Below, one piece after another: positions 10,080 through 41,100 of a DNA stretch of 55,883 nucleotides. Under the pieces are notes generated by a model, which saw only the letters and a list, made by a program, of their open reading frames with translations, ran no database searches and had not been told where the DNA came from. The stretch covers positions 1 through 55,883 of the forward strand of contig MNCI01000996.1 of assembly GCA_015680685.1 (NCBI GenBank), written 5' to 3'. The DNA is from Gnetum montanum. Lineage: Eukaryota; Plantae; Gnetophyta. Every line of letters begins with the position of its first letter. Position 1 is the first letter of the stretch. A program made the position numbers and the translations under genes.

Positions 10080-12390
10080 AAAGAGCTAACATGGTAGAAC
10101 AATTATAGGGTTTCTTCATAAAGCTAATATTTGGTTCTACATGCCACATCACACTCCTCGCTAAGCTAGATTAGAAATGAAATGCTCATGTGTCTAATAT
10201 GTAACACTTTGTGGGCCCAAGGCAAGCTCTAATGTGGCTTGTAGAATTTTTTGTAGAGTTGATTTTTAGCACTATAAAATGGTAGTATATTACTCTTCGT
10301 AACTGCTAATGCAGTAGAGTTGAAAATGAACTTGTTAGTAAAGACAATTTTTAACCTCATGAACTCATTTAACAAGCTAACGTGGCACATGCTTGCTTGC
10401 TATATTAATAGGCTTTTAAGAGGAGGTTGGTATGGCAGAGCTTCTTTGTAGAACCACTTTTTATCTCTAAGAATCTTCTTTACGAGCCAACTTGGCATGA
10501 CACTAACATGGTAGAACTTTTTCACAAAGTGTGATTTTGGCTCTATGAATAAGCTCTACGAGCTAACTTGGTGTGACAATGATGTGGCAAAGTATGTTGA
10601 GCATTCCTAATGTGGCAAATGTTGATGTGGCAAATGAAACATCTTTGATCTAGATGAGAAAATGAGCTTTGTCTATTTGTTGATGCGGTAGGTGTTGATG
10701 TGATAGATGAAGTTTTTCTCTTCTCACAAGCTTGTAAATCTTCATCTAGATGATGATGTGACATTGCATGTTGAATTGTGCTAACACAGTAGAATGATTC
10801 TATATTCTATAGAGCCATTTTTAAACTCTATGAACTACCTCTATGAGCTTCCTCTTCGCGCTGATGTGGTAGAGCTAAAAATAAGCTTGTTCATAGAGCT
10901 GAATTTTGGTTCTATAGAACCACTCTATGAAGAAGCTAATGTAGTTGAGAGTGACTTTGTAGCTTTATGACTTAGCTTTTGAGCTGATATGGTGAAACCA
11001 TCTCATAGAGGCATTTTAAAGTTCTTATGAGTTTTCTCTACATGCTGACATGGTAACGTGTGCTAAACTCTGCTAATGTGATAGATAAAGTTGTTCGTGA
11101 GTCACAAGCTTGAGAATCTTCATTTAGATGTTGACGTGGTAAGTGCTAATGTGGCAGAACCAATTTGGCAGATGGAGCATTTTTGCTCAAGATGAAAATA
11201 AGTTTCTTCTATTTGCTAACATGGCATGTGCTATCATAGCGGATGAAGCATCTTTGATCTAGATTAAAAAACAAGCTTCATCTACTTGTTAATGTGGCAT
11301 ATGCTATTGTGACAAATGCTAATGTGCAGATAAAACTTTGCATTTCTCATGAACTTGAGAGTTTTCATCTAGATGTTGATATGATGGATGTTGAGTTGGT
11401 AGAGATTGCTTGTAGAATGGAAGTTTGGTTCCACGAACTCCATCTACAAGCTAGTGTGGCACATGCTGATGTGGTAAAGCATGTTTGCATAATCAAATTC
11501 AGCCTCTATGAATATATGCTAACTCTAAAGCTTACATGGCAACAACTTTGTAGAACCACTTTCAAGTTCTACAAACTTCCTCTACAAGCTTATGAAGGTA
11601 ACATGGTAAAGTTATTTTGTAGAGCCATTTTTCAATTCTACAAAGCGACTTGATAAGTTGAGGTGGTAGAAACTTTTCATATAACTCCTTTTAAGCTCTA
11701 CAAATTCGTTATCATAAGATAAAGTTACTGACATGGTAAAGCCATTTTGTAGAGCTGAATTTCAACCTCACAAACTAGTTTTACAAGCTAATGTGATAGT
11801 ATGCTGCGTGGTCATAGAGCTTCTTATAGAACTTGATTTCGCGTATAAGCTAATAAAGGAGCTTACATGGCAGAGTGGATTTGTAAAGTTGAAGTGGCTC
11901 GTAGAATTGATTTGTAGAACCTCTTTTGGGTTCTACAAATCTACCCTTCTCCTCTACCAACTAATATGGTAGAGCCAAAAAGTGAGTCAAAAAGTAAGCT
12001 TGTTTCTATAGTTAGATTTTGGTTCTTCGAGCCTATTCTTTAAAAGCTACTAATGTGGTAGAGCTTGTTTTGATTTGCTTTATAGAGACAAAATTTGGCT
12101 CTCTCTCTAGCACTAATGTGGTAGAATTGAAAAGAGCTTCTCTTGTGAGGTTGAATTTTGGTTCTATAGACATTGCTCTTTCCCCAAAAATTGACTTGGT
12201 AGAGTCAATTTCATGTTTCTTTGAAGTGTTAAATTTTAGCCTCTCAAACATGCTCTACAAGCTAACGTGTCATAAGAGATCCATATAAACCTAGCTTCTC
12301 CTATGCTTTAAATCCCTCAAAGCCAAGTCGAGTAGAACCATCTTGTAGAGCTAATTTTTGGTTCTTTGATCCTCTTCTATGAGTTGTTGC
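10080..12390 (+). repeat. Degenerate tandem array built on a GCTRAYRTGGTAGARC...TTGTAGAG...TTCTAT motif
   Basis: Motif variants at about 10084, 10503, 10860, 10983, 11044, 11147, 11465, 11598, 11728, 11961, 12049 and 12112. Confidence 0.7.
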
Positions 12391-13409
12391 AGCAAGTGCA
12401 CTTCATTAAAGCCCTCTTTTGATTTGGATTGAACCTCCTTTTTCTTGAGGGGAGGGTTTCCTTCTGTGCTCAACTATTTGTTCTAATGCTAGTCCTTTCT
12501 TAAGATGAAAGTGGTCCCTAAGCTTTGTGTTTTAATTTTCAAAAACTTGAACAAAAATTGCTTATGCTTAAGCTAGGATAAATTCGTACAAGCTTTGTCC
12601 TAGGTTGCTATCTCAATCCTTTGTGCAATGTTGAATTTAAACTGAAACCCTAGCTTCACAAACTGCCTAGAAATTTCATAAGCTTTTGTAATTGACAAAG
12701 CGAAATATTATGGGATTGTTTAGCCTTATTAGACAATGATTGCTTAAAAACATCCCCTAGAAGTTTCTTTGCTTAGGGCTCACTTTCACACATAGTGCAA
12801 CAAATTTAGCGTAATATCTTCATGTGAGTAATTGATTTTTGAAAGTTGTGGGAATCGGGCAAAGAAGTAAATCCAATAATTCTAGCTTTGTTGCTATTTT
12901 GAGAAAGTAGTAGTAGTTGAACTTAAGTATTGAAGCTTCATCCATGCTACAACTCTTATCAAGATTCGAATTTTAATCATAATTAGGGCTTGAGCTTTCT
13001 ATTCATTTAATTCAAAGCCTTGATTTATTTTGAAATAGAGTACCTTTCTTTTATAGAGCTATATTAAGAGCCATTTGCAATATGTATACTAAGCCTCAAA
13101 TAACTTAAGCCTTGCTCCATTAATGGCCAAAATGTGACAATACTGATGTAACTATGTTTGCATCAATGCGATCAACTTAATTACTGTTCATTACATAGGT
13201 TTGATTCTAGTGGACAATGCTAAGTTGAATTGGACTATATATTTTGGGGTGTACCTATATTACAATTATTTCTTTGACCCTTGCCTTTCACTGTTGCCAT
13301 GTTTAAATTAAATAGATTGATGTTGCAGTCATTTAACTTAGCTTTCTGTTTAAATCTACGCTCTTACAAGTACTCAAGTTATCTTTTTACATTTTTGGTT
13401 TAATAATGA

Positions 13410-20100: not shown

Positions 20101-23100
20101 AGCTTAGGAAGTTATCAAGATGTCCAAGTCCATTTTCATGTTGCAGACCTCAAGGCTTTAGGAAATAGAAATGCATATGGTGACATGGAAAATATCAAGA
20201 AACCTTCTATTATAATCGGGTTTTGTTTTCAAATTAGTTCTTGAGCATGACGTTTAAATGGATCTTAATTTCTGTAGATTTACCTTATTGAAGAACATCT
20301 TTTTGTAAATATGAAGCTAAAATTGACATGTCATGTTTTAACACAGCATCTTTTCATTTAAAGTTTAGATCTGAACTTCTTTTGGATTCTCTGACAGCAT
20401 ATACATTTTTGTTTTTGTCCTGAGCATAGATGTGCAGCAGCGTTATTCATCCTGGTTATTTGATTGAAGTGTTTGAAACACTTCTATCATCAGCAGCTAC
20501 TACAGTAGACGATGACACAGGAAATCCATCTTGGCAAGCACGCGCTGATTTCTACATATTCTGCATATTGGCATCCCTTCCTTGGGGAGGGCTAGAATTA
20601 TATGAGGTATGTTACCATGGAATTTTTAATATTGTTTGTGTTCTAGCTTATAATATAATATTGTTTATTACTAAGAAAGCGGCCTTATAGAATTAAGAAT
20701 GATTAGGAACTATTGTAGGAATGTAGGGAAATATTTTATTACATGTTTGAAGACCCTAGGGATTCTTTGGACTGATTTCAGTCACTGTCAGGTCACTTTG
20801 GATGTTGAATCAGGATGGATTATTAACTAAAGGTCTGGAATTGATGCCAGCTCATCTATTGCTGTGGCTCTTTATTTCGTGGTCACACCTTGATAGTATG
20901 ACAAGGCTTATGTTAGAGTATACACCTAAGTTAAGGTACAATCATTAGTTTCTTAACTTAATTTAACAATAATTACGAGAGGTCACAATGATTCTCCAAG
21001 AGTTATAACTCCTTACAAAGGATAAGAGAATGTAAGTGCCTACTTCGTAACAGATGATAAGATAAGAGATACTAATACTGAAGGCATGGAAGAAGAGAAA
21101 TGAAGAATAAAAATTAAGTATGTGTGACCCCATTGAGATAAGGAAGTGACATTGGAACAACAGCCACAACAATGTTCATAAATTAAAAGAGTTTATGAAC
21201 CACAATGATTGTGATTCGTAAAATTACAAAGGAGAAATGTTCATGCTACAAGAGTAACAGAAGCATGAAGCAATGCAAGAAGACATTACAAAACATAGAG
21301 TTCATAATAGGGCAGCACAATGAACAGGATCAAGAAGTGATTCAAAGATTCAAAGTTAAGAAGCAAGGGGTTTAAAATGTGACTCGAAGTTAAGAAGCAA
21401 GTCTTGCAGGAGACAAGAGTAATCCCCGTAGCACAAGATCTAGTTTTCTAAAGAGGAAGAGTAGGTTCAAGTTGTGCTATACGTAGCTTGGTTCAATTTC
21501 TCAAGCTTCTTAAATAAGAAGAGAAGGCCATCCGGAAGGTTATGATGGTTAAGAAAAGGAAACGACTGATGAAAAAGTATTTCATAAAGCCTAGTTAAGC
21601 TAAGTTAGAAGTAGCTTAGTAAAGTTAAGGAAGAAGTTAAGTTGAAGAAGACTTAATGAAGTAAAGACTTTAGACGACAACAAGTCTAGGTACAAAAATT
21701 TGTAATATAATAAGTTACGAACAATAGTTGTAAGTGTATTATTAACTTACAATGAAGGAGTAGATACACTTGAGAAGAAGATCCATAACTAGAGGAAGAG
21801 CAACATTACTGAAGCACAAGAAGTTCTTCTGAACTTAGCATAAGCAGACTTTGAGATGCCCAAAGATGATGGTTGCAAATTACCAAAATCAGGAACAAGT
21901 TCTAAGTGATGGAATCAGTATAACATAACTCTGCTCATTATAAGAGGATTTATAAGCAGCAATCCAGTAAGACTTATGATACTCACAATAGCAAAGAATT
22001 ATGAAGAGCAGTTGTCATTATGAAGAGAGCTATGATCTTACAATTCTACAATATCTTCCTACATATCACATCCTGGAGAATTCTGAAGATAACATGAAGA
22101 ATATTATGAATGATGTTATTATCAATTGCAAAAAGTGTATCTCCATGTAAAAGATCCTAAGGCAATAATGTTGTGTTATGAAGGTAATGAAAAGTCAACA
22201 AAGAAACATCTCAAAACATATATCCGTGGAATACTTATGTCATAAAGGTTTAGGTCATTAACAATATTAGTAATTGCATGTCAGTGATATTAGTCATCAC
22301 TGTTAGTTTCCAGTTAAGATCTGTGTGTAAACAATTACATTTAAGGAACTTGTTTACGGGTCATTGGAATAACTAGGCATTTTGTTATGTTGACTTTTTC
22401 ATATTGCAACTAGTAGCTTTGTCAATCTTGAGAACACTTCTTATTCTTTTCTTCCAGTTATAGAATTTACTCACATTTGGGTTGGACCTAAGTCACCATA
22501 TTATAAGATCCCAAGCAATATGCTTTAGGCCAATGTTTCAAATTTCCAATTCCCTGTGCTTCTTAGACTGTTTTTCTATGAATAGTTTTGGTTTTACTAA
22601 CTACTTGATTCTGCATGTCTTTAGCACTTTTATTTTATTTTAGTTATATTTAATTTAGAACTCATATATTTGTAATGACTATAGCGTGTGCAAGATGAAC
22701 TCGAACGGGTAATGGCTGGAATTGAAGCCTATTTGAGGATTAGAAGGCCTATATTGGAAACTGCATTCTCACCTTTCGTCCTGACTATGAAAAAGCTTGA
22801 TTCATCTGACAATCTGGTAGCTACTTGGTCTCCATTTCTGTTTGTTTTACTATATATGCCTTCTAAAGGTTTAATTTTGGAGAATTTGTATGTGATAAGA
22901 TAAAAAAATCACTGGTTATATTTTTTTGTCTGCATAGTGTGCAGAGAGGAGATTAATAACATTTGCACCGTTAATATATGAAATGTGTTCCTAACAATGC
23001 ATTGTAGTAATCGATGACTAAAAGTTCAGGGAAAGGTCCTTTTTGGTAACCTTGGAAGTTGGCTTAGTGGCATTATAAATGAAAAAATACGAAAGAGTTG

Positions 23101-26100
23101 GTAACCAAAAACCTAAAAAATAGTTATGTTTTTTTTTACGATCCATTTAATTCAGACTTTCAAAAACAAACTCTTGAAATACATACAAAATTAAAAATAT
23201 TAACAATAGATGAATGGAAAGGTGAACAGGAGTGGGGAGGGCTACTTACTACCGGAAGCAACTAGTTACCAGAATCACTGAACGGTACAAACATGGAATA
23301 AACATTGCACTTTATAATAAAAAGAAAACATAGTAACCAAGAAACATAATGAAAAACATCACGCCATTGTCTCTGGTTGCCTTTGAACTAAATTGAACTG
23401 CAGTGAAACAACAGCACAATAAAATTGAATAACTGCAGTACATAAAATTGAATAGAATGCTTTTAAAAGTAGCAACTGACCAGAAACGGAAAAAAACATA
23501 GAAAAAATAGTAAACAACAAGTGATTACCTGCTTAAAAAATTGCAAGCTTCCCAGCAATGCGCCAAATGGCAGCAGCAAAGAAAGGCAGTCTCTCAAATT
23601 TTATTTCAAATTTCATTCATAGTCCTTACAGCTTTGTTCCTTTATTCCTTTTCGGTCAAATCATCATATCTGCCTGTTAATTTATTTATTTACAGCACAG
23701 CAGCAGCAACAGATCCAAGAATGAAGGAATCAATTCCATCAATCTTTCATTACAGCATAAGCTCCAATGTGCTCAATGAACGCATAAAATCTAGTCTCCT
23801 TTTCATCAGTATAACTCCTCCTCCTCCTCCAAGTAAATTTGTGAAGATAGGATTCAAAGAACTTTGAAGTGGTGCCAGATTTTGGTAAAAATTGTCACCA
23901 CCCTGAAGGTGATTTCCTCTTTGTTTATATGCACATTCATGATTGGATCCTTCAAGTGTCTGGAGTGATTTACAATTTTGCATGTATAATTCAGCTACTG
24001 TAGGTATTCCAAATTGTATGCTTTTCACATATTGCTGTGGATTTCACTACTTGGCAAACCCACTTGTAGATCAAATTAACTAAAGTTTTACTGCTTTTGT
24101 CTTGAATAACTTTAAGGTATAATTTATTTTTTGCAAGATTGTTCAATCCCTTCAAACATTCTCTTTCTATTCGTTCTCTCCCCTTTGGGATACTTGCATT
24201 TGTCAGATTTTCTCTCATCAATTTCTACAATTTTGACAGGGCCTCCAATTTTTCCTGCATTCTTAAATACTCCATCAGAGCATATATTTCTGCCGAAACT
24301 GTATCAATCTATGGTAATATGCTTTGAAACATTGGTATAAGCATAGTATTTCACTGTCATCCACCATGACTAGTCAAATCAATTCCATAACGGATGTTGT
24401 GAAGAAAGCTGTTCATCGTTGAAGTGAATCCCCTTCTTGCACATTGTTTAATACGGTATATTTTGCCTACAAATTTAATTTTTTTTCCTTGATGAACCCT
24501 TTTCTTTCAGCATTGGAAAGCTACACTTTGGACAACTTTTTGCAGCATTAAACAAGCCAAGCTTTTTAGTAAATTTGACATAATCTTTGACTGATCTTGT
24601 TTTAGAGATGAAGAGCTCTATGGTCAGCTTCTTCCTTGGATTTACAGTTAGCTGAGCGTTTTCCTTATTGGCTTCATCATCATCTTCCATCTTAGTTGTC
24701 GTTTTCTTTTTCTGACTTCACTGAAAGTGCTTCTTCATCCTTTTCTATCACTGCTAAAATGGCTGACAAATTACCATCACGCTGCTGAGCAGAGCACAAG
24801 TGCTTTGGTTGGCGAAATTGTCGGAGTGATTTTAACATTTGGGTTGGTTGCATTTTATTAATGTAACTTGCTTGAGTCGAAGGAAAAACGAATTGAAAAC
24901 TTTTTTGATAACCGGTTGAACTGGCACTATATTATGGTACAACTGCTTGCTACCGGTAATTACCTTCACCACGATTATTCACCCTTTCTTGGATGAACTA
25001 GTCAATATAAGTTGCATCAATATATCCACCAGCACCACAAAACATATCTACACCCAAGAATTACAAATATTCTTGTCCTCTATATTGCAAATGTTGTTGT
25101 CCCTTGTAATTTGCTTGTTAAACAATCACAACATTAAATCAGAAGAATAGAATAACATTAGATGCAATAAGTTAAGTACAAGGCTTTAGTGAACTTTCTC
25201 AATTCATGAAATCACTTAAGAGAAAAGTATTACACAATAGAATTTTCCAACTCTATTAAAATGCCAAGCTACCAAGAAAGCCAAACATTAAATTCAGGAC
25301 TACCCATTATATGAATTGTCCCACAGGCTTCAAATTTGTGAACTGTCAAGATAGCAGCATACTGTATTGATCAAGTTCACTGAGTGATTACTCTATAGAA
25401 GAAAAACTTGCTAGATACACATTAGCAGCAGCATCAAACATTTTTATATCTTGTAGATAAAGAAATGATGTAGGAAATGTAGCTTGTTGACACAAGGATG
25501 CTTTGGTTGAGTTAGATTGTACAAGTGATCATCAGAATCTTTGCTGCTTGCTATTGAAGGTAATAGAAAAATTAGAACATCATCTTAGGAATGGAATAGA
25601 ACATAGAGACAAATCACCAATACCGTATCCTGTTAATGATAGAATATAGAGACAGAGAATCTTGTGCTTCCAGAGTGATGCTGAAAACTAATTTTGTAGA
25701 AACAGAAAACCAATTACAAGTTTATTATTTTTTTGTAGTTTGAGTTTATATGGCCTAATACAGAATGAATTTTTTTTTCTTTATTATTTTTTACCATGGC
25801 ATAAGACGTTTTTGAGAAATCATCAAACGGCCTCCATTTAATGGCCATAAACTTGTAAATCTATAAAAGTTGGGGAGAATGTCATTGTGCAACGAAGACT
25901 TTTCCCAGGATTTATAAAGGTGACATTTTGAAAAAATTCAAAAGCTGTAGAAGTCCCTGAAATTTCAACCACAGATAGTAATAATTCATTTGTAATGTTT
26001 CCAAATTCTGCCTGGATATTCTATTGCTTCATGATCAATCTACATTATTGAATCATTAATTCTCTTTAATCTCTGATATTATAATTTGGACAGTTGATGT

Positions 26101-29100
26101 TTTAATCTGACTCATTTACTGGAACATAGATTGATTTATGGAATTTCCTAAAGATTACATGGTTCCCCAACTTGGGTACTTCCACACTCGAAGGGTAGAT
26201 TCCTTGCACTCCTCCAAACTTTGTTGCTCAAAATGTGGTTTCAAGGGCACCACAACCTGTACAGGGCTTTCAGGTCTCATAAGTTCTCAAATTCTCTTAG
26301 GATGATTTCTCTCAAGAAACACATCTAACCTCTTAGATCATTACAAAGTCTGTATTTGCAGCACACACAGCCTCACAAGGCAAGATAAGGAAAGATAGAA
26401 TGAGTGACAAGGAGAGAAAGAAACAAGCTTTTTAGATTCCTTGCTTGAAGCACAGAAAACATTGATTGAAGGAATGATAGCTATTGATAGCTCTTTTGAT
26501 AAGATGATGTGGACAGTGCTTGTTCTGTTGCCTTGTTACTTTTTGCTCTTGAATGGGCCATTCCTTTATAGGTTGGTTTCCTTGTGACTGATTGTTGAAA
26601 AATTAGTAATGGTTAAAAATGGTCATTGGAGATGTCTTGCTCAAGGCTTGAGATGTCTCATTGAGTTTGCATGCAAGGCTGGAGAGACGTCTCACTAGAG
26701 AGATAGACGTTTTTGTCAAGGGATAGATGTCTCCGTGGGATAGAAAACGTCTCTTGAATATGACAGACATCTCTGGTAGTTCTGGTTGAGTTATGGCAGG
26801 GTGCATGGAGCTCGGGAAAGATGTCTCTTATGGGTCATGGACATCTCTAGCAGACTATAGACGTCTCTTGTTAGGGATAGATGTCTCTACAGAAGTTTGG
26901 ATCTTCTGCACATATTGAGTTCTCAGCAGAGATGTCTTTGCTCAAGCCAAGATGTCTCTTAGCAAGTGCTACATGTCTCTTCCATGTGATATATGTCCCT
27001 TGGTCTTAGCAATTTCTTTTTCCTCCTGGTCTGTTCTTTCATGATTTTGCATAATTGGTTCTTGGGTCTTCCTTTCTTCTTGGTTCATCCAGTGGCGATT
27101 CATTTATCCTTCTTTGATAATGCAAGAACTCAACCAAACAAGTTCTCTATGTTTCAAGGTTTTGTCACACCAAAAATGTCAACATTTCTCTCCTTTGTAG
27201 GTATATCTATGTGTCTCATAGATGAGCAGCTTAGCTCTGGGCAGTTAGAAATGACTTTAATTTGTGTACTCACCAATTCAATTTTCAAAAGTCTTGTACG
27301 TAAGGGTGTATCAAGGTGCAAGCTGATGATGACTGATAATTGTATTGATGATTGCTTGATTTTAAAATCCAGGATTTGAACCAAATCTCGTTGTTAAGAT
27401 CTAGTTCTTATCTATAGAAGGGATTCTTTCACGGTGTGTAGTGTTGGCATCAGTTTGAATTGATCTGTTTGCCTATTATGTGTTTTTGATCTGCTATCTT
27501 TCTTCATAAGTTGGGCTGTGAGTTGTCAGTATCTATTTTATTAGTATTAAAAATCTGAACGTAAGACGTTAAGATGGCTGTACTTGCCCTAAAAGCACAA
27601 TATTTGGAATAAAATTTAACCTTTTATTTATGAGGAAAACTTGTCTTTGAAAATGGAATTAAGTACCAACCGGTGAACTGAAAGCAAATAAGACATTTGA
27701 AATTTTAACTTTTGGAGCAATTTGACACCCTGATATAGCATTAAAAATGTGGTATGTGTTAAACATAATTCCTTGGAAAGCTTTTGCTTTTGCAAAATCA
27801 ACTTGGAAAATAAAATGAAAAAGGTGATTGAGAGAACTTTTAGATGTGAAATTTGTTTCTATAGAGTTATATTTACAACAGATTATTTGTTTATTTTAAA
27901 GGTTTCTTCACTTTTATTTATGTATGATTTCTAGTCTTCTTTGTTTCTGGCAGATATCATAAGTGCAACATGAATGAGCTCAAATTGAAACATGTAAATT
28001 ATGTTTCAATTGCAGTATCTGTGCCACTAATTTAGGATAAACTTGCAGAGTTGAGAATGCATATCAAGTTACATGCCTGGAGAACTTGAAAGAGTTCAGA
28101 ATTGCTATTTTTATTCTTTACATAAGCAACTTTTGGCACATATAAAGTTTTAAAGCTATGTTAGGAGTTTTGTACCTGGTAATGATATTATATTCTAGTT
28201 GCTTTATTCCTTGCTTTTATGGACTTTCAAAAATTCACTAGAAAAGTACTCCTCTCCATCCTATTCTTGATACTAGTAATTCTCTTTATTTGCTTGCTAA
28301 ATACTTGACAAATTATTTGGCTCCTCTTGTTGGTAAAACCTTTGCTTTTATTAAAAGAAAAAAGCACTAATCATTTTGTTGGTTCTTCATAGTTGTTTTA
28401 AGTATAATGTTGCATCACCCATAGTTTGCACATTTTTTCTTTGCAAGACTTTTTGAATCATACTAGATTCATCATCAGTTGCAATTGATTTCTCAAGGAT
28501 TAAAGAGAGAATAAATAGTATTACGGTTAATGGCTAGTTGAGATGTTGTGGGTAACTGTTAATTTTTCGAAAAAAATGGTTAGTTGGAGAAAAAATGAAA
28601 ATATAATTTAAAGATATAACAACTACAATAAAAACAAGTTATAGGAAAAAAGACAAAAAAATTTAAAAGATATAATGGCTACAATAAAAATGGCTAATTG
28701 TATGGAAAAAAGTATAGCGTTAATTTTGTAGTTATTAAATTAAATTTGTTACTTGGACAACATTTGTGTGAGATGAGGTAGCATCAAATATAGTTGAAAC
28801 AATTCAACAAATGTAATCAGTTGTCTCCTTCACAGGACAAATTTGTTCTACAAAGTTCGAATACCAACAAATTCATTATTAAAACATAAATTTGTAAGCT
28901 AGCAAAGGAATTTTTAACTCAGCTTCACAGTTCTAGTGCTTTCATACTGGACTATGATTAGCTCACCAGTCAATGTAGACCAGTGGTCAGTTGTTTGTAA
29001 TCTTTTTCTCAATATGAAGTTCATTTTCAGCTTGTTGACTGCCGAAGTGAAGTCTTAGTTCTAAGCTACCTTCATAGTCTGAACATCCTCAACCATTCTT

Positions 29101-32100
29101 TCCTAAGCTATCTTTGTGGAGAGTTCTTTAGTAGCTCCTTGGTTATGTTTCTTCCTTGTCTTCATTTTCATTGATGATTCACACCTTTAACTGTTTTCAC
29201 AAACTAGGTTTAGTACAAAGGTAAGCCATTGCACCTTTCTTTGTCAAGGGTGACATTGTCTGGTTATGGCTCAACAAACATGTTTTGCTGCATAATAAAA
29301 TTGGATTTTTAGAATGTTAATGCATTTTGCTAGTTTTATGAAAAATATTGATATCAATGAGTGATATTTTGGTTTACTTTGATGGTGTTTCATTGTATAC
29401 CATGATTCCTTTAGGTAAAATGATGGATATAATACATATGATGAATTTCTTCAATTTTTGTATTCCTTTTATCTAAACATTTATAAATTTTAAAGTAAAG
29501 TAGATGTTAAGCTTGACACTATTTATGCTCTTTTTCTAATCCATGAGAAATCAATTGCAATTGATGATGAACCTAGTATGATTCAAAATAATTTATGAAA
29601 GAGAAAATGCACACTATGTATTGTATGATGATAATGTGTTCTGTTGAGGTTATTAGTGATAAAAAACCCACGGCTTTAATCCCTTGGAATCACAACTATC
29701 ACCAAATTAAAAAAATGTTATATTTCTTTTTCTATGAATTTTTTTTTAACTTTCAGATTTTTCCAATTTTGAAGTAACAAAAGGATAATTTCTTTTGAAT
29801 GTTGATGTAGGACTTTTTGGAAGACTTATGGGGGCGTATAAGGTCGTTGCGTGAGGATGAATGGAAAGTTAATACTGGTTAGTTCTCTTCCTAATACCAT
29901 AGCCAACGTGACACATTATTTTTCATGTCATTTAGTGGCAAATTATAGATCCATGATTGAGCATTGAAAAAGAGGTGGTCATTATTCTATATCGTAAAGG
30001 TACCATTTTTCAGTTGTAATGCTAATATTTGTATTACCTAATATCGAACACTAGTTCAATATATTGTTTGTCCTGTAAATAAATGGTATCTATTAATAGT
30101 CAATGTAATGTCCCTTTTAAAGGCTTGCTATTTTGATATTACATAGCTGCATGTAGGTTTTGAAATTTTTTTAACTGGTACATGCTTGATAATAGATACA
30201 TTGGAAGTTTATTATATATTTTTTTTACCAATATTTCTGTTTAAATTGAGTTCTGCTTGGTTTGACTGACCTGTCATTCTGGCATTGGGCACAAGTCTTG
30301 TGGAATGATTCATCACAGCATCGGGCTCAATATGTTAAACCTATATTAGGCTTGATATTAGAAAGAATTAAATTGGTGACAGATGAAATAGTATCCTTAT
30401 TTAAGTGCTCCCATGTACGCCATCTTATTAGATTTTATGGACATAATATCCACTAGTACAAGCTTAATTGATGGTGATTGTTTGGATTATCTAATGCTGA
30501 AACAACTTGACATATTTTAGAACTTAAGGTTACTTTTCATGGTTGTAAATCAAGCAAGTTTACCGAACAAATTAATAGAAGTTGCTGATACGTTCTTGAC
30601 AACTTATCTTTTGAGAAGTATCTTGTGGGTTCAGGTTTCTGATTTGCATCCTACAAGTTGCAATCTTAATTCCATACTGATATATATCAGCATGTTGAAA
30701 GATAATGACTAAAATTGAACTTGTCTAATAGATCCTTAAGGTCTCCACGTGGATGTAATAGAAATAGTCCAACTTCAGTTCATTGTTGGTCTCATTTATG
30801 ATGTGCATCTGAGCTTTATTGGGTATTAGTTGCAAGGATTGTAAGACATATAAGATGAAATTGAAGTATGTTTTAGAAAGTGCATGGTGACACAATTGTT
30901 GATTTTGGTGTTTTTAAGATTTATGCATCAAGTAATCAAGGGTTTACATTTTATGTGCAGTTCCACGACCATACTTTGATTTTGAAGCTCGATTGGTAAC
31001 AGGAAAGAGCCATGATGTTAAATCAATAACTTGTCCTATGCAACCTCCCTTGCCTTTGACGGTTTCTGATGTGTCTTTGGGTAGACAAATGCATGAGGCA
31101 GCACTAAAATATCCTCAGAGACTTCAACGATTGCACATGTTCTCTAATTCTGAAAATGATGAGGTAATTCATGAAAATTTGGTTATGCTTGACATATCTT
31201 CCCAAGTTTTTTGGTTCTGTTTGAAAATTTGTTTGAGCTTTAAACTGTTTGAAAAAGGAATGTAATCTTCAAATGGATCAATTTTGTGTGTACTTACATA
31301 CGTGGCTGTGTATATTTCAAGACTGCATTAGCTATGGCTTGTCAATTGAATTTGTGATTATGCAGTTCTATGTTGACATAGATTAGGGTATTTGCAAGTC
31401 TGAACAGTCTGTTAATCCTGATGCTCATGTGATTATCATTGCAAAAAGTATGTCAGTGTCCCAGCTGGATTATTGTTTTTGTGTTTGTTCTGTTTTTAAA
31501 CTGTATAGGCGTTAATGTTTTCATTTTTGCTCAAGTCAATTTCAATACTATGACCGTTCATTAAAACCAGGACATTTTTCCCTGATACTTTTGCATGACC
31601 TAATTGGAAAAGTAGATCATGAAGCCAATTGATCGTTTTGTAGTGGAGGAGTATATTATGGATGTTCTGCTCTATCTCAATGGCTGGTAGGCATTACACA
31701 TCTATCTCTTTCATCATATGTAGGTAGGATTTATGGCCATCCAATATTGTTTAAAGTGCTCAACATTTGTTAATCAATGTTTAAGTAAGATTTGTGAAAG
31801 GATAAAGTATATGATGTCTGTATATGTCATAATAACTGAGAACATTATTATCATTATCTTAGAGAAATTATGTAGCTGACCTTATGCCGTATATTGTTGG
31901 GACAGGGCTGTGATGATGGCTATTATTATTATTATTGAAACTGAAATTGCAATTGAAATTGAAATTTTATTGTGTTTGTATAGGCCCAAAGTATTTGTTA
32001 GACAAATTAACTTGTGAAAAATATATCAATCGCAATAAATGCTGAGTACAACGGATGTTTCAGTTTCATTATTAGTATTATTAACATTTTCTAGAAAATT

Positions 32101-35100
32101 TAGATTACTATCAATAATGCTAAAAGAGGAAAAGCATCCCTGGTAAATATATTAAAGTGATTCACAACATGGATGAAGGAGATAATGCTAGAATTAGAAC
32201 ATGTGGAATAACATTTGATTTTTCAGTCATAGTAGGTCTAAATCAAAGGTTTGCACTTAAACTAAGCAAGTACATGATGAAATCTTTTGGTGTATGCTAT
32301 TTGTACATGGTTGGTGGATACAGATTGAGCAAATATTGCTTTTAAAATGGAGAAGTAAGGGCAGGCTCTAGAATCAGAAGATTTAAAAATTAGTAGTAAA
32401 AGTAAGGCAAAATACATGGAATCTAATTTCAATGGAGGTGAAATCAATGATACAATAGAAGTAACCATTCAAGTTAAGGGGTTATTGTTTGGAGTGAATT
32501 TAAGGTGCTTGTTTCTCAAGTTGTAAGACTTGGGTTCAAGCCTAGGTGCAGCCACTTAGTTTAGGATTTTGTTCATTTACTGACCTTCCTGAAACCAGCC
32601 TTGGTGGAATTCTGGGTGATGATCCTTTTTAATTCAAGTCTGCATTGAGGTAGGGTGATCAAAATGGAGATAGGCTAATGGTGTTTTATGCAATAAAAAG
32701 GTCTGAATAAGACTAAAAGGAAAATTTTACAGAATAGTAATCAGGTTTGCTCTTTATATGATATCGAAAGTTGGGTTATGAAAAAGTTGCATGAACAACA
32801 AATTAATGTTGAAAAATTCTGAATGCTTAGCTGGATGCTGAATGTTGTAAGAAGAGATAAATTTTGTACTACAACTATTAAGGAAGACTTGGAATGACTT
32901 TTATTGTAGATAAGCTTTAGTAGTTGTGTCTAAGTTGGTTTGGTTGGTTTTTAGAGAAGTTCAGATAACGGGAATCAGACTTTTGGGAAACCCTTAGAGA
33001 GGAAGACCAGAAAAAGGCATTGGTAAAATGTTTAAAGGAAAAAATTGTTGATAGATTAAAGATTTAGCCCTTAATTGAGGATGATGATGTGAGAGAACTC
33101 ATATAGCTAACCTCATATTGTCAGGACAAGGCTAGGATGATAATGATCAATAGCGAGGGAAAACATTGGGAGAATATGAAGGTCATTATCAGATTTGTTA
33201 TCTATTGATAAAATATTGAAATTTAAAATCAAACTAGCAACTAGTAAAGAAGAACTACACACAAAAGCAGCATGGAGGGTTGAGTTTGTATGTGAGGTTT
33301 TTATTGGAGAAGAAAAAAGGAAACGTTTTTAAAAATCCAAAGCAACTAAAAGTAATGATGATGCTTTAAAAAACTTCTAAAATGAAGTTATAAAGGCAGC
33401 TATAAAAGTTAATACAAAAACTAAATGTAACTATGATGTGTAGATTGAGATGAATAATGGGAGCACAAAGATAGGATATGATTAGAAAACAATATGTCAG
33501 GGGAAATTGTAGGGTTGTACCTATTAGGGATTGGAGGAAGTTGAGGAAGTGGGAGAACAAGTAAGGCATGTTCAAAGTGACTATGTAAATATGATGTGTA
33601 TATTAAGATGAATAGGTGAGCAACAAGATAGGATATGAATAAAAAACAAAATGTCAGGGGAAGTCGTGAGGTTGTACCTATAAGGGAGTGGAGGAAATTG
33701 AGGAAGTGCAAAAACAAATAAGGCATGTTCAAGGTGACTTTGTAAACTAAAATCTGAGCACAAGAGTTCTCATTTGAACCAATGAAGAAAGGACATGTAC
33801 ACATTTCCATAGAAGAGAAAACTAAACCCCGAAAAAGAAAATAAAAAGAGGAAAAGTTATAGAAAGGCAGCAAAGTTGCATAGGGAGGCGCACCTGTTAA
33901 ATCCAGTATAAGGAGGAATGGAGAATTCTGAGGTGTAAGCCAGAAAAGGGAATAGACGAAAGGAAATGAAGGTAGCAAGGTCTTAAGAAAAGAAAACCAT
34001 ATTCTGAAGTGACGTAGAATAACATGGAACAATTTCTACAAATGATTATGAAATAAAGAAGTGACTCTGCGGTGTATGGTAGAAACTAAGAAACGCCAAA
34101 GCAAGATTTTCTGTCGTGAATGGAGATATCTAAATTAATATCCCTTAGTGAATGGAGGAATTTAAGATTACTATCCATAGTAAGGAATGAGGTCGTGTAA
34201 AATCTATGCAGTGAACAGACAGAAAAATGTATTGATTCCATAATAAATGAATGGGAGATGATGTATAAGATTGTCAATGCATAGGAGATGTGTCTGTTGA
34301 ACACAATTTTACTAGTCAACATTGTTAAAACAAAAGTATCTCTTAAGTGTAACGAGTAACTCTTCAATAATATAAAATCAAACAGTGCTTCATTTATAAA
34401 ATTTTTCCTAATTTCTACCAGGCATGAGATGAAATAACAGAGACATGACATGGTAGCTTGTGATGTGGCCGATGATTTAGCCTTATGTTGACAAAAATTA
34501 ATGAACTGAAACACCAAATAAAAAGAATAATGTTAAATTGATGAGGTTTAAATGATATAATTTACGAAAGAACCATCATCACAACTGCATCAATAGACTC
34601 AACTCAAATGAATGTTATGTATAAGATGTCTTTGTAATGTAATAATAACCACCTGGGAAAATGTTATGACTTTGTAAGATAAACTCTTAAGCCATTTATA
34701 TGCTGGCCGCAGTTATGTAAATGTCAGGATTTTAGCCATCCATGCCTCTCATTCTATGTAATTGATCTTCATATTGTACATATTAGCAGTTGGTGACAGA
34801 TATTTGTAATTTGTTAAGATGTCTTTAGTCTGAAAATTTAACATTATTTTAGCTAAGTCTTATGGCAGAGATTTCCTATGCATAGCACAGTACTTTAATT
34901 GAAGAAGAAATTACAAATACATTTCTATATGCTAATTATGTGTTTTGTACTTGAAATTCATTAGTCGGAAAGAATGCACTGCATACTTGGTTGGGTTACC
35001 AGTTCCTTTCAATTATGACAAAATACTGGCAGAAACTATATTCTCGCAGGTAATGGAGACCATTCAAAGATATTTGTGTTGTGTAGTTACAGAAGATATA

Positions 35101-38100
35101 TATATTTTTCTTCTTTTGGTGGAAAAGGTTCTTTTATATTTCTTTTCATCTCTAAGAGTGTTTTTGAGGATGGTCCTATTTTATTAGAGAATTCTTTTTG
35201 AAATACTATACATGGTGCCATCTCAAATCTCTACTTTCTTAGCAGATACTAGTGGCTCCAAATGTACATAGTGTTTTTTAAGAGAGACGTGTCTAATCAT
35301 TTATAATTATTATGTCCATTTGAGTTTAAAAGAGTTTATTGAGAGAGTATAAGAAAATCAACTTTTTTTTTTTTTTGGAAAAATTTGAGTGAAGTTTATT
35401 CCCAAAAAGAATGACTATACAAAGGTATAGCGCAAGCTAGGGCAGTTGACCCCACATTGACAACGGACCCAAACCCCTAGGCCCCCCGCAAGTCCCAACC
35501 GCATCAGGGCATTCCCGTTAGCGGGTTAAAGGTCCCAACCCTGGACCTTGAAACAGTATTTCGGATTGAGCCAGGCATGTCCCAGCGCCCCACCCCACGT
35601 TAGGGGCTTTTGGGGCGGTCATGGTTAGAGCTCCAACTCTCCTCGAGGGTTTGGAGGTTCGAGAACTGCGCGCCCGGGCAAGCATCCAAGCGACGACGAT
35701 TCTCTTCAATTAGCCGGGCAATACCTATCATGTGGTCGTTGATGAGGCTCTCAATCCATTGCAGCATTTGGCTGTGAGAGTGCGGGGGTAGGGTCTGTTT
35801 CCCAGAGAGCGCTTTCCTAGCAGCCCGAACCAGCCCCTTGTCATTGCTCGCCTGCCCAGTTGTGATCGCTCTGGGGTCGGTATCCACAGTCGACGAATCC
35901 CGTAGCGGGGCCTGGGCTGGCCTGCCCCGCACGCAACCCCCACCCGCAAGGTCCCGGGAGGACATGGTCGTAGGCTTAGCCGAGATCGCGTCACCCCCCG
36001 CCGGATGGCCTTTGCTCCCCCTCCACCTTTGATACACCAGCGTAGGCCTGAGCGGCGGAGCTAGAGTGCCAAACCGCCAAAGAACATAGATCACCATTGG
36101 GTGTTGGCCAGGCCGGCGTCATTGCAGAGACTCCCAGAGGAAGTGGGGGAGGTTAATAGGAGTCTTGGCGCGTATGTGCTTGAGAAACATGAAGTGCACC
36201 CCGTTGAGTCTATGGTGGGAACCCAACTGAATGAAGTAACGCTCCACCATCGCGGTCGTGGCCCTCCAGGCTGGCGAGAGGGCCAACCCCTGAATGTGGC
36301 CGTTGACTGTCCGGGGGATGGAGCCCTGGAAGAACTCGGCGGCGTCCACCTGGGACTGAGCCACAGGGGAATCTAGTCCCCTGTTGCGGGGGCACCAATC
36401 ACCTCAGCCAAAGCGTCAACCATCACCTGGATTTGGCGTCCGCGAAACATCGTGTACTCCCTGTTCTAGTTTGCATAGAACGGCTGGACATCCATCTTTG
36501 GGTTTGCCGCAATGTGTTGGAGCAAGGTAGTCCAACCCATCCGCGAAACCATCTGCTAGAGATTAGTTTGTTTTTGAATGTCGGTAGCTGGCGGTTCGAG
36601 ACAGGCACGCGGTCCCATTAGTGCAGTAGTTTCGTCCCACGATCTTCTGAACCAGTGAACCAGCGCGGCAGGTGAGGGGATAGTTGTCCCTCTGAAGATC
36701 CGATTGTTCCTGGCACGCCAAAGGGTCCATAAGGCTGCAAGTGTTTGCGAATCACCATAACATTAGAGCGGGGGGAGGCCGGACATACTCCAGAAGTTCC
36801 TAGCGACGTGGCACTCATGCACGAAGTGTTGGTGCGTCTCGTCGCGTTGATTGCACATTGGGCAGATGGTGTTAATGTGCATGCCATGTGCCTGCAGACG
36901 CGTTCGTACAGGAAGCACCTCGTTCAGGACCAGCCACCCAAAAGCCTTAATTTTTTCTGGTAGGCAGCCTTTCCATAGGCGCTTCCAACGAGGATCCTCC
37001 GAGAATTGGCGTTTGAGCAGTTCACGGGGGTGCAATGCGGTCTCGTCTTCGTGGGTGAGGGTGTGGATGTGTGCACAGAGTTGGTGCCAGACCAGGTTGT
37101 CAGACACGGTAGCCTCCTAGGGTCGGTATTTCCATACCAGGAGTTGCACCCACCGGGGGGGNGCACGACGCCGGACGACAGTGTGGCCATGGAGGCGGCG
37201 AATCTTGCCATGGCTGCCAACACAGTAGTTGCCAATATGATCTTCCCTTTGCGGGATAGGAACCTGTTCGCCCAGTGAGCTGTGTGCATTTGAAGTTTCA
37301 TTATGAGCACCTGCTAGGTTCGCTGTTTGTGCCAATTGTGCATTGGCATTCCCAAGTACGTGTCCTCCTCGCTCCCTGGGAGAATCCCCAAGATCTGGAT
37401 GATCTTAGTGCGCACACTAGGATGGGTATGGGTTAGGTATATTGCGGACTTGCCTGTGTTGGTGGTCAACCCCACTTCCCTCTTCATCCTGTCCATCGCC
37501 CACAGGAGCGCCCGAGATGTTGGTGACCCAGACGTTCGGTCCCAGAAGGTGCACCGTGATGCTCCAGTCTGATGCATCGAGCAGGGACGAGGCAATCCTG
37601 GTGAGGATAGTGAGACCGCCAGCCCGTCCTCGGCTAGGCACCAGGTGACTGCACCATCCCTCCCAATGTAAAGCTTGATTTTCCGGCTGTCGTAATTTTG
37701 TCTCTTGGAGACACACCACGTCGCACCCCTCGGTACACATAATTCTTTTCAAGGTATTTCTCTTATATAGGGGTACCCTGTCCCCGACAATTCTAGGATA
37801 GAATCTTCATGGAGAAACAGACAAGCATCTGTGATAAACCTCCCAGAGTGTGCATTGCGCTCCCAAGTCGATATCCAATTGCGTGGTCGTTTTCCAGGTG
37901 TGGGCGCTGTTAGGACGTCCAACCTTGGGCGACGTCTGGGTTACATCAACCCCCTTCTCGTGCAGCACCCCTTGCACAACATCGGGCATTTTGGGCCGTG
38001 GCAAGCCCCTGCTAGTGGTGATCCAGTCACTCAGCGGCAGTAGCTCTAACCCCACCTGAGATGTGTCCACCCCCTTGTCTTGGGGCTGTTGGGCGAGCTA

Positions 38101-41100
38101 GGGCAGCCCGCTTGGGTGTTCGGACTAGATGGAGCACCACAAGAAGTTGTGCCCTTTTTGCCTGGTCGGTTGTTCAGGTTCGCAGCCATAGGTCCCCCTC
38201 CCCGAGAGGCCCCGAATGTCCCTCTCCCGGCCCGTCGAGGCCAGGAGGAACCACGCTGTTGTTGCCCTTGGCCGGGGGCAGCCCCAACCCCGACCTGCGA
38301 CACCCATGCGGACTCCGTCAAGCCATGTTTTGCCACCCGTCCCTTCTTTCCAATGAGCTTCCAGCCACCTTCTTTGAGCTTGGGTGTTGGGCTGCCCTGT
38401 TTCGCATGGTTGACCCCGCCAGTGATGCCCTCAGGCGAGGCCGGGGTCGCAGGCGGCAGGTTTTCGAACTGCACTCGGATCCTTTCCTCCCCTAAGTTTG
38501 TGTCCAGCACGATTTCGTCCACGCGGTCCTCGGAGCGCAGGGATTGCCATACACAGAACCTTGCAAAACCCAAACGATCCATCCCCGCAGTGAACGGGTC
38601 AAATTTTATAAACTCGCCAAAGAGATCGGCCAGCGATTTCAGAAAGTCCACTGACCAGTATTCAAGGGGGAGACTGTGTAGTCTCACCCAAACTGGTGCC
38701 CGCTCAAAAAGATCCTTATCTCGGTGTGCCCTCGGGCACCAAGGCGCCAGCGCCAGCCCCCGTGCCCCATAAAACCAGGGCCCTTCCACCAGGATGCGCT
38801 CCTTGTCCGTCCCTGATTCGAAGCAAAATAGGAGACGGTCGTCAGCCAGGCTTTTGACCATCATCGTGTCCAGCCCCCAAATCGACCAGACCCATCGCCA
38901 AATCAAGTCCATCCATGGCTGCGCGCCCTCCGACATGAACTTGCTGAGCAAGCTGCGTTCTAACCGTTGTAGGGTGCCGGCCGCCGGGCGACCAACCTTT
39001 AGGCTCATCACCGAACCCTCGCGCGAGCAGGTCTCAAACTCCCTGGGGCCTTTTAGCGCGGCCAGCGGGGCTGCCTGCCTTTCCTCATGCGCTTCGCTTG
39101 AAGCGATGCCATTGGCGGTCTGCGTACCCGCATCCGCTTGTGCCCGCCCTGTGCCCTCTGATGCATTTGAAAACATTCTCGCCCTGTGCCCTCTGATCCA
39201 ACTTTCCAACAAGTTTCTCCATAAGAAAATCAACTTTCTTCTTGGTGTATGCAATCTCGAGACTTAATAGTACAGGCAGAATACTGCCAAAAAAATGTAT
39301 ACACGACCACTGCAAAAACATGATCATATTGACTAAGATTACGAATAATTATTGAAGTTTCATTTGACTAACATGCAATAGTTATTGGCTAATATCAAAC
39401 CTTATATGTAAATTTTAATAATATTGTTAATGCTTATTATAGCACAGGAATGTTCACATAAAGATAAAAATAATTAACGCCTGACATATTACTTGGGAGA
39501 TGGCCGAGAAATGAAATCTATGCAAACATGATCATTAGTCATTAGTCGTTGATAATCAAGCACAAGAAACTCAATGCGTAAATAAACAATAGATATAGAA
39601 AAGACAATGGTCTTCCTCAGTCATAGGTCAGGTTAATCTTTAAATGGACAGACTTATCTGACTACTTTTTTACCAAAAGGCACAATTTACATATTCGCAG
39701 GTTTACTTGTTAACTTTGGTCATTCCTGGTCATTTCCAACTTGCTGAACCAGAACAAATACCATGCTAAAATATTTAAGCATGTGCATTTTTTTGGACGT
39801 TACTCGTTAGAACATGCTAATTCAAATACTTGGATCTTTGCAGATATTTTTACTCCCTAAGCCAAGGTTTAAATTGCTTTATTATGCTTTAGTAATCATC
39901 GATCTCTTCAAGGTAAACCAGCACATTTATCGTTTTCCAAATAGCTATATTTTAATTCAATATGTTATTGAAATTTTGTGCAACCTTCTAAGCTTGCTGC
40001 GTTTTTCTTATATGATTTTATTGTAGGCATTGCCTGGAGCATTCCCAGCTGTAGTAGCTGATTCTGTTCGGTGGCTATTCAATCGAGTGGGTGATTTAGA
40101 CATGGAGTGTCGAACTCGGCTTGTTCTTTGGTTTTCACTTCATCTGTGAGTTTCTTAGTTAACAACAATTGCTTCCAAGTCTTAAGCTCAGTTGCATCCT
40201 GTATGAACTTGTTCAACTCTGACTTGTTGCCTTCGAAAAATCAGTAAGCTTTTATTATGAGTTCTTAATCGATGTGCAATACTGGTTTCAGATCAAATGT
40301 ACGTTTTATATGGCCATGGACAGAATGGGGGCTTGTCTTGGATCTTCCAAAGTGGTCGCCACGGCGTGTTTTTGCACAAGAAGTACTTGAAAAGGAAGTG
40401 AGGTTGTCATACTGGGAAAAAATAAAGCAGGTTTGACACTAATGAGTTTCTCTGTTCAACATAACAAAATATACATTATTCAAAGTCCTCTTGCTTCTCA
40501 TTTTAATAATCGGTGATATTTCAACAAAGTAGAACTGAATTTCCGTCATGTATAATTGAGACATGATACCTTGTAATTTGTCTCCTCTTTTTATATAGAG
40601 TTTAGAGGAAGCTCCTGGTTTTGTGGAGTTACTTCCTCCCAAAGAAAATGGACCGTGCTTCAAGTATAGCAGAGAGAGTCAAGGAGAACAATCTGAGACA
40701 GAATTGGCTCTTGCTGCGGACCTCACAAATATGGTGAGAGATAGAAGAGTTGTACGTGAAATTTATACGTGGGTTGATGAGAATATTGTATCTGTGCATG
40801 GCACCAAAACAGCCATTGAGCTGGTGGTACAAACTCTTGTTAATATTGGATCAAAGACCTTGACCCATTTGGACAGTGTTCTGGAGAGATATGGACACCT
40901 CATCTCAAAGCTAGGTTCTGATCATTCAAATCAAGTTCTAATCATAGATGAAATTTCCAAGCTGTGGAAAAATAATTCTCAGATGATTGTGATTACTATT
41001 GACCGAATGATGGGGTACCGTATTGTTTCTAATTTCTCAATCTTAAAATGGGTATTTGCTCCTTCGAATATCGAGCAATTTCAGACCTCTGGGCGACCCT

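What the first reader, a model, noticed from the sequence alone, without database searches (positions are those of the whole stretch)
23221..24983. Merlin/ISXO2-type DNA transposon embedded in a land-plant intron
Seen: a full-length transposase relic on the minus strand with the motif order CxxC zinc ribbon, IGGPxKIVEIDE, FxGIE, SxIHS(D)xWKAY, VNHSxxxKDP, HxNxxE, SYLxxFxWRR, flanked by imperfect inverted repeats that start GGTGA. Known: this motif set characterises Merlin and the bacterial IS1595/IS1016 family. Merlin is described mainly from animals, fungi and protists and is not among the usual plant superfamilies (hAT, CACTA, Mutator, PIF, Mariner, Helitron). Its position between collinear CBP80 exons argues against contamination. 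Inference: ancient retention in this lineage or horizontal acquisition.
Basis: partly seen in the sequence, partly recalled or inferred. Interest (0 to 1): 0.75.

Follow-up and report, generated by a model that had tools for sequence, protein, structure and literature searches.

The report
Dead Merlin transposon in a gnetophyte
A broken "Merlin" jumping gene, a type rarely seen in plants, sits spliced out in an intron of a housekeeping gene of a gnetophyte seed plant, and its nearest relatives likely include intact copies in a moss and a copy in a root fungus.

Summary
Confirmed, with corrected ends. Window 23216-24989 (minus strand) is a 1,774-bp Merlin (IS1595-superfamily) DNA transposon relic. 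It has imperfect ~80-bp inverted ends, a 9-bp target duplication (7/9) and a transposase broken by about 6 frameshifts and 6 stops. It lies in the 7-kb intron after the seventh coding exon of CBP80. RNA reads splice over it, and a related species carries it at the same site (4% divergent), so it is not contamination. The host is a gnetophyte (CBP80 sister to Welwitschia, 100/100). Diverged copies exist elsewhere in these genomes. I found no report for gymnosperms in 10 searches. Its best matches include three intact 307-aa Merlin proteins of the moss Ceratodon and an unnamed protein sister to one from the mycorrhizal fungus Gigaspora. Trees favour this grouping (89/94) but do not prove it (AU p=0.34 against arthropod placement). 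Long residence in plants is slightly favoured over an ancient plant-fungus transfer.

The parts
23216..24989 (-). Whole Merlin DNA transposon relic, 1,774 bp, antisense to CBP80
   Evidence: Boundaries where the inverted-repeat alignment ends and the best 9-bp direct repeat begins
23207..23215 (+). Left copy of the 9-bp target-site duplication (TAGATGAAT)
   Evidence: 7 of 9 match to 24990-24998. Top score among 25x27 boundary pairs, tied only with the same repeat shifted by one base. A random pair in the intron reaches 7/9 in 0.3% of draws
24990..24998 (+). Right copy of the 9-bp target-site duplication (TGGATGAAC)
23216..23295 (+). Terminal inverted repeat at the element's 3' end; begins GG
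   Evidence: 56 of 87 alignment columns identical to the other arm (counted from the alignment printed); score above all 2000 shuffles
24910..24989 (-). Terminal inverted repeat at the element's 5' end; begins AG rather than GG
23739..24690 (-). Broken transposase gene, about 315 codons; 6 frameshifts and 6 stops on the path aligned to P0158 (101 of 304 positions identical)
   Evidence: 526 proteins at E<=0.001 among 1.84 billion, best E 6e-22
24523..24534 (-). CxxC motif of the N-terminal cysteine cluster, which is near-invariant in the Merlin-type proteins aligned here
24217..24219 (-). First catalytic Asp (VEIDE), kept
   Evidence: invariant column D158 of alignment A1
24031..24033 (-). Position of the second catalytic Asp, read as Asn
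23914..23916 (-). Catalytic Glu, apparently kept
   Evidence: invariant column E259 of alignment A1
22685..22816 (+). CBP80 (nuclear cap-binding protein subunit 1) seventh coding exon, upstream of the host intron
   Evidence: tblastn collinearity; splice joints in RNA run X24
22817..29810 (+). 6,994-nt GT..AG intron that holds the element
   Evidence: 24 reads of X24 with 23 start places, and one contig of X10, skip it
29811..29877 (+). CBP80 eighth coding exon, downstream of the host intron

Best explanation
This is a dead Merlin cut-and-paste DNA transposon in an intron of the CBP80 gene of a gnetophyte, spliced out of the message and shared with a related species, and it likely descends from a Merlin lineage long resident in land plants. 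Shown: inverted ends, a 9-bp flanking repeat, a broken IS1595-type transposase, removal by splicing, an orthologous copy and diverged paralogues. From established DDE transposon biology (not tested here): an intact transposase bound the inverted ends, cut the element out and joined it to a target cut with a 9-base stagger, whose repair made the duplication. Inferred: the insertion was tolerated because it lay about 400 bases from the nearest exon, became fixed and decayed neutrally by about 0.25 substitutions per site. That makes it roughly ten times older than the split from organism G. Inferred with less support: it belongs to a branch that also holds the Ceratodon, Gigaspora and, by eye, Selaginella elements. 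My confidence in the identity as a genuine dead Merlin is about 0.97; the number given here is for the whole statement, origin included.
For: Identity: profile score 193 vs 24.8 +/- 2.2. All 6 tested loci and all 4 tested best relatives carry PF12762 above cut-off. TIR and TSD fit the Merlin definition in PMC8101967 section 3. Genuine: one X12 contig spans exon, element and both junctions with 144 substitutions and 82 gap letters in 3,601; two X2 contigs cover it with 0 differences. Inert: 24 X24 reads splice over it and mean depth on it is below 0.7; 29 of 51 near-invariant residues kept. Plant-associated branch: the 10 best of 324 frameshift-aware scores fall in 4 clusters, all in this group. 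One cluster is Ceratodon purpureus. The best hit of the unbiased search of 1.84 billion proteins, P0291, falls in the same group. The careful tree gives 89/94, with the read-through guided by a spider protein. Placement weight in or at the stem of the group is 0.66 and 0.96. Merlin is in print for Selaginella and Rhodamnia.
Against: The AU test does not reject grouping with arthropod Merlins (p=0.337). FastTree on 344 rows puts the relic at the base, outside the group. In the placement test 21 and 19 of 71 branches were not rejected, among them the bacterial stem. Raw identity does not separate relatives: 31-34% to the group against 28-34% to animals in the spider-guided reading. Moss to spider is 49%, the same as moss to P0158. 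The group holds a fungal member (P0425, Gigaspora margarita), so it is not plant-only and at least one transfer or misassignment is needed. Three of its clusters have no named host. The candidate set was enriched for relatives of L057, which was in query A1. The shared 17-residue spacer is not diagnostic (58 of 364). The plant distribution is patchy.
Confidence: 0.5

Rival explanations
1. Same dead element, but the family entered the gnetophyte lineage by an ancient horizontal transfer from a root-associated fungus (Glomeromycotina/Mucoromycota) or from another plant.
For: The best-scoring relative, P0158, is 75% identical over 221 residues to P0425 of Gigaspora margarita. That pair joins the moss element and P0123 with SH-aLRT 99.5. 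Merlin is listed for Gigaspora rosea in the supplement of PMC8101967. Lopes et al. say patchy groups are better explained by repeated transfer (section 15).
Against: Placement weight next to the Gigaspora pair is only 0.006 and 0.05. P0425 itself scores low (157) because it is partial. Identity is about a third, so no recent donor is seen. Muszewska et al. found no Merlin in Rhizophagus irregularis (PMC5751038, passage). The host of P0158 is unknown.
Confidence: 0.32
2. Same dead element, acquired independently long ago from an animal or protist Merlin; the likeness to the moss element reflects long-branch noise.
For: AU p=0.337 for grouping with arthropod elements. FastTree leaves it outside the moss group. 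Identities to spider and abalone proteins are close to those to the moss protein. Several top phmmer hits are named animal proteins (P0292 Elysia, P0305 Cordylochernes).
Against: Score ranking, the top phmmer hit and three IQ-TREE trees point to the moss-fungus group. Placement weight on the arthropod stem is 0.0001 or less.
Confidence: 0.14
3. A bacterial IS1595-family insertion sequence, either an assembly contaminant or a direct transfer from a bacterium.
For: Shared Pfam family. The bacterial stem is not rejected in the placement test (pAU 0.28 and 0.18).
Against: Contigs of other runs and organisms join it to the CBP80 exon. Seven bacterial transposases score 34-97 against 342 for the best eukaryote-type match. 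Bacterial and Merlin-type proteins split at 100/100. No match in 72,556 plasmids at E<=10. It is decayed, with host-like 35% G+C.
Confidence: 0.02
4. The relic has been kept because it now serves CBP80, as an alternative exon, antisense RNA or regulatory sequence.
For: It is retained at the same site in a related species. X10 (RNA by guess) holds two short identical contigs on it.
Against: No splice joint into it is listed, and X24 depth on it is below 0.7 against 17-29 reads per exon joint (4 joints were not shown). Substitutions and indels against X12 fall both inside it and in the flanks. The frame is destroyed.
Confidence: 0.02

Closest known systems
Merlin superfamily of eukaryotic DNA transposons (Feschotte 2004, not read, as cited in PMC8101967; sections 3, 10 part 1, 14 and 15 of PMC8101967 read)
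   Same: DDE_Tnp_IS1595-type transposase, single gene, inverted ends within the 24-462 bp range, 5'-GG at one end, 9-bp target duplication
   Different: Host is a gymnosperm, a group not named in that survey's supplements (0 hits for Gnetum, Ginkgo, Pinus, Picea, Welwitschia, Ephedra in 11 files). The copy is dead, one end reads AG and the second Asp is lost.
Merlin-1_Smo and related copies of Selaginella moellendorffii, S. kraussiana, S. tamariscina; degenerate copies in Rhodamnia argentea (PMC8101967)
   Same: Inactive Merlin in a vascular plant. By eye, the Selaginella proteins printed in supplement S2 resemble P0158, P0291 and the moss protein in the N-terminus and around the FGGIER motif.
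   Different: The S. moellendorffii copies have a truncated catalytic domain; this copy spans the whole domain with both ends and a TSD. The relationship was not computed, because those sequences could not be given to the tools.
Ceratodon purpureus hypothetical proteins KAG0596911.1, KAG0597450.1, KAG0612874.1 (P0242-P0244)
   Same: Among the highest-scoring relatives (301-317); PF12762 E 4.5e-21; same length class
   Different: Open 307-aa frames, 98-99% identical to each other, on 112-Mb and 18-Mb scaffolds, so apparently young. Annotated only as hypothetical; their ends and TSDs were not seen.
Bacterial IS1595 family (IS1016/ISXO2 groups)
   Same: Same catalytic domain family and similar TSD length
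   Different: Separate clade at 100/100; scores 34-97 against up to 342

Membership tests
Merlin superfamily | Transposase with DDE_Tnp_IS1595 (PF12762) domain | tested here: met
   Direct Pfam is below cut-off because of frameshifts (E=0.096; none). Frameshift-aware profile 193 vs max 30.75 in 60 shuffles. The best relatives all carry PF12762.
Merlin superfamily | D-D-E catalytic triad | tested here: inconclusive
   First Asp and Glu kept; second Asp reads Asn. This fits decay, since only 29 of 51 near-invariant residues survive.
Merlin superfamily | Terminal inverted repeats of 24-462 bp | tested here: met
   About 80 bp, 56 of 87 columns identical; 0 of 2000 shuffles reach the score
Merlin superfamily | Terminal 5'-GG-3' on both ends | tested here: inconclusive
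   Left end GG, right end AG. One change in an old copy is expected; no young copy was available to check.
Merlin superfamily | 8- or 9-bp target-site duplication | tested here: met
   9 bp at 7/9 (or 8 bp at 7/8 with the left end one base further out), adjacent to the TIR ends; 0.3% for a random pair before allowing for boundary choice. No empty site was seen in the 4 DNA runs laid.
Merlin superfamily | No Pfam Zn_Tnp_IS1595 domain | tested here: met
   No such hit for the relic or for P0242, P0158, P0425, P0291, although an N-terminal cysteine cluster is present
Merlin superfamily | Groups with eukaryotic Merlins rather than bacterial IS | tested here: met
   100/100 in the careful tree and by score. 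Caveat: the bacterial stem was not rejected in the simpler-model placement test.
Merlin superfamily | Dispersed multicopy family in the host genome | tested here: met
   Other contigs about 80-90% alike over 84-195 bases in X2, X9 and X12. Copy number could not be measured, as no genome is held.
Active (autonomous) Merlin | Open transposase frame and expression | tested here: not met
   12 stops in 289 codons of the main frame; 6 frameshifts; X24 depth below 0.7
Bacterial IS1595 family | Prokaryotic host and context; placement among IS transposases | tested here: not met
   Inside a spliced plant gene; outside the bacterial clade
Moss/Selaginella/Gigaspora branch of Merlin (proposed here) | Statistically supported placement in the branch | tested here: inconclusive
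   89/94; weight 0.66-0.96; AU p=0.337; not recovered by FastTree

The most novel reading that the evidence does not exclude
Land plants have their own Merlin lineage: still intact and recently multiplied in the moss Ceratodon, truncated in Selaginella, fossil in gnetophyte seed plants, and exchanged at least once with arbuscular mycorrhizal fungi. It would be a transposon record of plant-fungus DNA transfer and a candidate active plant Merlin.
Probability: 0.3. Interest if true: 0.75.

Novelty: new member of a known kind. Interest (0 to 1): 0.45.

Why it matters
The one survey I found states that plant Merlins are confined to a few species, that active copies are absent, and that the family was lost in more derived lineages (PMC8101967, section 10). 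A full-span copy with ends and TSD in a gymnosperm fills the gap between lycophytes and angiosperms. It also shows that such copies escape Pfam-based screens. The open, near-identical moss proteins found along the way question the 'no active plant copy' statement and can be tested in a transformable moss. The fungal member makes plant-mycorrhiza transfer a testable question. The insertion itself is inert; it can serve as a presence/absence marker within the host genus.

Tried and rejected
No whole genome is held, so there is no copy count, no family consensus and no young copy. Pfam on open pieces and on the main frame: no PF12762 hit. Word-indexed homologue search with the read-through: 0 of 177 candidates passed. 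Plasmids with the read-through: no match at E<=10. Viral contigs: 0 matches to the motif, and 0 of 3 pattern hits confirmed with the moss protein. GTDB genomes: 0 of 204 pattern hits confirmed with A1; 3 of 14 confirmed with the moss protein. No RNA holder was listed by the run index; this is no evidence either way. X21 and X22 showed almost no CBP80 exon reads and are uninformative. No empty-site joint in 4 DNA runs; contigs show presence only. A two-residue insertion first looked like a shared mark of the group, but 58 of 364 proteins have that spacer length, among them a sponge protein, so I dropped it. L057 gave no usable termini for comparing TIRs. No language-model look-alike result was obtained, and no structure was predicted because it would not change the verdict. 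Two paper ids recalled for Yuan and Wessler 2011 were not held. Earlier findings of this scan: none on plant Merlins.

Full report
Observation. They are not in one open frame: the main frame 24690-23824 has 12 stops in 289 codons. Aligned to the best relative with frameshifts allowed, the gene runs 24675-23757 with 6 frameshifts and 6 stops, and 101 of 304 positions are identical. The two ends are inverted copies of each other: local score 70, against mean 34.2 and maximum 61 in 2000 shuffles. Scanning 25 x 27 boundary pairs for 8- and 9-base direct repeats gave TAGATGAAT / TGGATGAAC (7 of 9) at boundaries 23216 and 24989 as the top score, tied only with the same repeat shifted by one base. 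These are the places where the inverted match ends. A random pair in the intron does as well in 0.3% of draws, before allowing for the choice of boundary. The element is therefore 1,774 bp, slightly longer than reported, with GG at the left end and AG at the right.

Family. Direct Pfam evidence is weak: 0 of 8 open pieces, nothing for the main frame, and PF12762 at E=0.096 in one of three frames. A motif scan of metagenome contigs returned 119 stretches, 117 of which encode the motif. All 6 tested carry PF12762 at E 4e-16 to 7e-21. A frameshift-aware profile of 16 of them scores 193 on the element, 24.8 +/- 2.2 on 60 shuffles, and at most 40 on the other 45 tile-strands of the window. An index-free search of 1.84 billion proteins with the read-through gave 526 hits at E<=0.001, best 6e-22. 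The first Asp and the Glu of the triad are kept; the second Asp reads Asn. Lopes et al. 2021 define Merlin by this domain, TIRs of 24-462 bp with terminal GG, and 8-9 bp TSDs (PMC8101967 section 3). Seven bacterial IS1595 transposases score 34-97 against 342 for the best match, and the four kept in the careful tree form a separate clade at 100/100.

Host and context. CBP80 exons lie collinear from 14072 to 43469 (PF09090 E 6e-24). In a 25-row tree the window's CBP80 is sister to Welwitschia mirabilis at 100/100 but far from it (path 0.58). The host is thus a gnetophyte; Gnetum or Ephedra is my inference, as neither was in the tree. Of 24 runs listed, 7 hold at least half of the stretch; without the possible source these are 6 runs of 2 studies and 2 organism labels. 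I laid 4 DNA runs. Two X2 contigs cover 22400-26000 without a difference and each crosses one junction. One X12 contig (organism G) spans exon, element and both junctions with 144 substitutions and 82 gap letters. X8 and X9 give short pieces on the element and its flanks. Contamination is excluded and the insertion predates these species. X2, X9 and X12 also hold other contigs about 80-90% alike over 84-195 bases of the transposase, so a dispersed family exists; its size is unknown, since no genome is held. In RNA run X24 (about 26% read), 24 reads splice 22816 to 29811 over the element, neighbouring joints have 17-29 reads, and depth on the element stays under 0.7. X21 and X22 had almost no CBP80 reads. 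X10 (RNA by guess) holds the spliced form and two short low-depth contigs on the element, which may be pre-mRNA or DNA.

Age. Only 29 of 51 near-invariant residues survive (28 with the other read-through). Simulated neutral decay matches this at about 0.25 substitutions per site, with roughly 0.15-0.35 compatible. The orthologous copy differs by 4.0%, or 2% per lineage. The insertion is therefore about ten times older than that split. This is an inference: misalignment and methylation-driven mutation would inflate it, and no rate was calibrated.

Mechanism. Shown: ends, flanking repeat, broken transposase, splicing over it, orthologous and paralogous copies. From established DDE transposon biology (own knowledge): the transposase binds the inverted ends, excises the element and joins it to a staggered target cut whose repair duplicates 8-9 bases. 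Inferred: this copy landed antisense about 400 bases downstream of an exon, left splicing intact, was fixed and decayed. It cannot make an enzyme, and its ends (64% alike) are unlikely to be recognised in trans.

Origin. The 10 best of 324 frameshift-aware scores belong to 4 clusters: P0158 (unnamed); a cluster with three Ceratodon purpureus proteins; P0123/L057 (unnamed, 71% to the moss protein); and P0291 (unnamed), the top hit of the unbiased search. The candidate set was enriched for L057's kin, because L057 was in query A1. P0158 is 75% identical to P0425 of Gigaspora margarita, and that pair joins the moss element and P0123 at SH-aLRT 99.5. The relic joins this group at SH-aLRT 94 in a 63-row quick tree. 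With a read-through guided by a spider protein it joins at 90 (quick) and 89/94 (careful) in 36-row trees. Rows for these trees were chosen by score, name and dereplication from the 324. Placement weight in or at the stem is 0.66 and 0.96, but only 0.006-0.05 beside either the fungal or the moss pair.

Evidence against that placement. The AU test does not reject an arthropod grouping (p=0.337). FastTree on 344 rows puts the long branch at the base. In the placement test 21 and 19 of 71 branches survive AU, among them the bacterial stem. Raw identities overlap with those to animals. A shared spacer length is found in 58 of 364 proteins. The Selaginella proteins in supplement S2 look like this group by eye; this was not computed. 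I put long residence in plants at 0.5, plant-fungus or plant-plant transfer at 0.32 and another donor at 0.14.

Literature. PMC8101967: abstract, sections 3, 10 (part 1 of 2), 14 and 15, passages, supplement file 5 part 1, and term searches of all 11 text supplements; two alignment files were unreadable. It reports Merlin in three Selaginella species and Rhodamnia, says active plant copies are absent, and lists Gigaspora rosea in a supplement. Its supplements have 0 hits for Ceratodon, Gnetum, Welwitschia, Ephedra, Ginkgo, Pinus or Picea. PMC5751038: passages. PMC10794571 and PMC11075540: passages naming Merlin only in lists. Feschotte 2004 and Yuan and Wessler 2011 were not read. Ten full-text searches (listings only, apart from the four papers above) showed no report of Merlin in a gymnosperm or a moss. 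Subscription papers, Repbase/Dfam and the repeat tables of genome papers were not searched and may hold one. Earlier scan notes held nothing on plant Merlins.

Verdict. A real, ordinary dead Merlin in an unusual host: a new member of a known kind, interest 0.45. The bolder reading, a land-plant Merlin lineage alive in moss and shared with mycorrhizal fungi, is not excluded (probability 0.3, interest 0.75).

Noticed in passing
P0242-P0244 (Ceratodon purpureus KAG0596911.1, KAG0597450.1, KAG0612874.1): Three open 307-aa Merlin-type transposases, 98-99% identical, on 112-Mb and 18-Mb scaffolds, annotated as hypothetical. Candidate young or active plant Merlin; flanks not seen.
   Followed up: partly
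P0425 (Gigaspora margarita CAG8712934.1) and P0158: A mycorrhizal-fungus Merlin pair that groups with the moss element at SH-aLRT 99.5; possible plant-fungus transfer, or a misassigned contig.
   Followed up: partly
window 35363-39220, minus strand: Young L1-type LINE in another CBP80 intron: exact 14-bp TSD beside a poly(A) tail, open 405-aa ORF1 (DUF4283) and zf-RVT, but no reverse-transcriptase hit in three frames, so it looks internally deleted. G+C is 55-60% in its core, in a roughly 33% host.
   Followed up: partly
window 28418-28690: High-copy repeat in the same intron: many RNA reads and contigs from other loci pile up with loose ends. A CTAG near 28462 recalls a Helitron end (recalled, untested).
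   Followed up: no
window 25062-25182 and 25304-25545: Another repeat just right of the element, with raised contig depth in the DNA runs laid; not identified.
   Followed up: no
L120:1501-2337 and L121:1501-2292: Eukaryote-type Merlin genes on 4.5-4.9 kb contigs of two bacterial MAGs in GTDB. They group with eukaryote-type proteins and are probably mis-binned.
   Followed up: partly
window 540-1259: Run of assembly Ns (705 in the window), far from the finding.
   Followed up: no
window 10000-12400, 33425-33746, 49769-50095: Degenerate short-unit repeat upstream of CBP80 (seen), a 157-bp tandem duplication, and a weak retrotransposon protease fragment (E 0.16).
   Followed up: no
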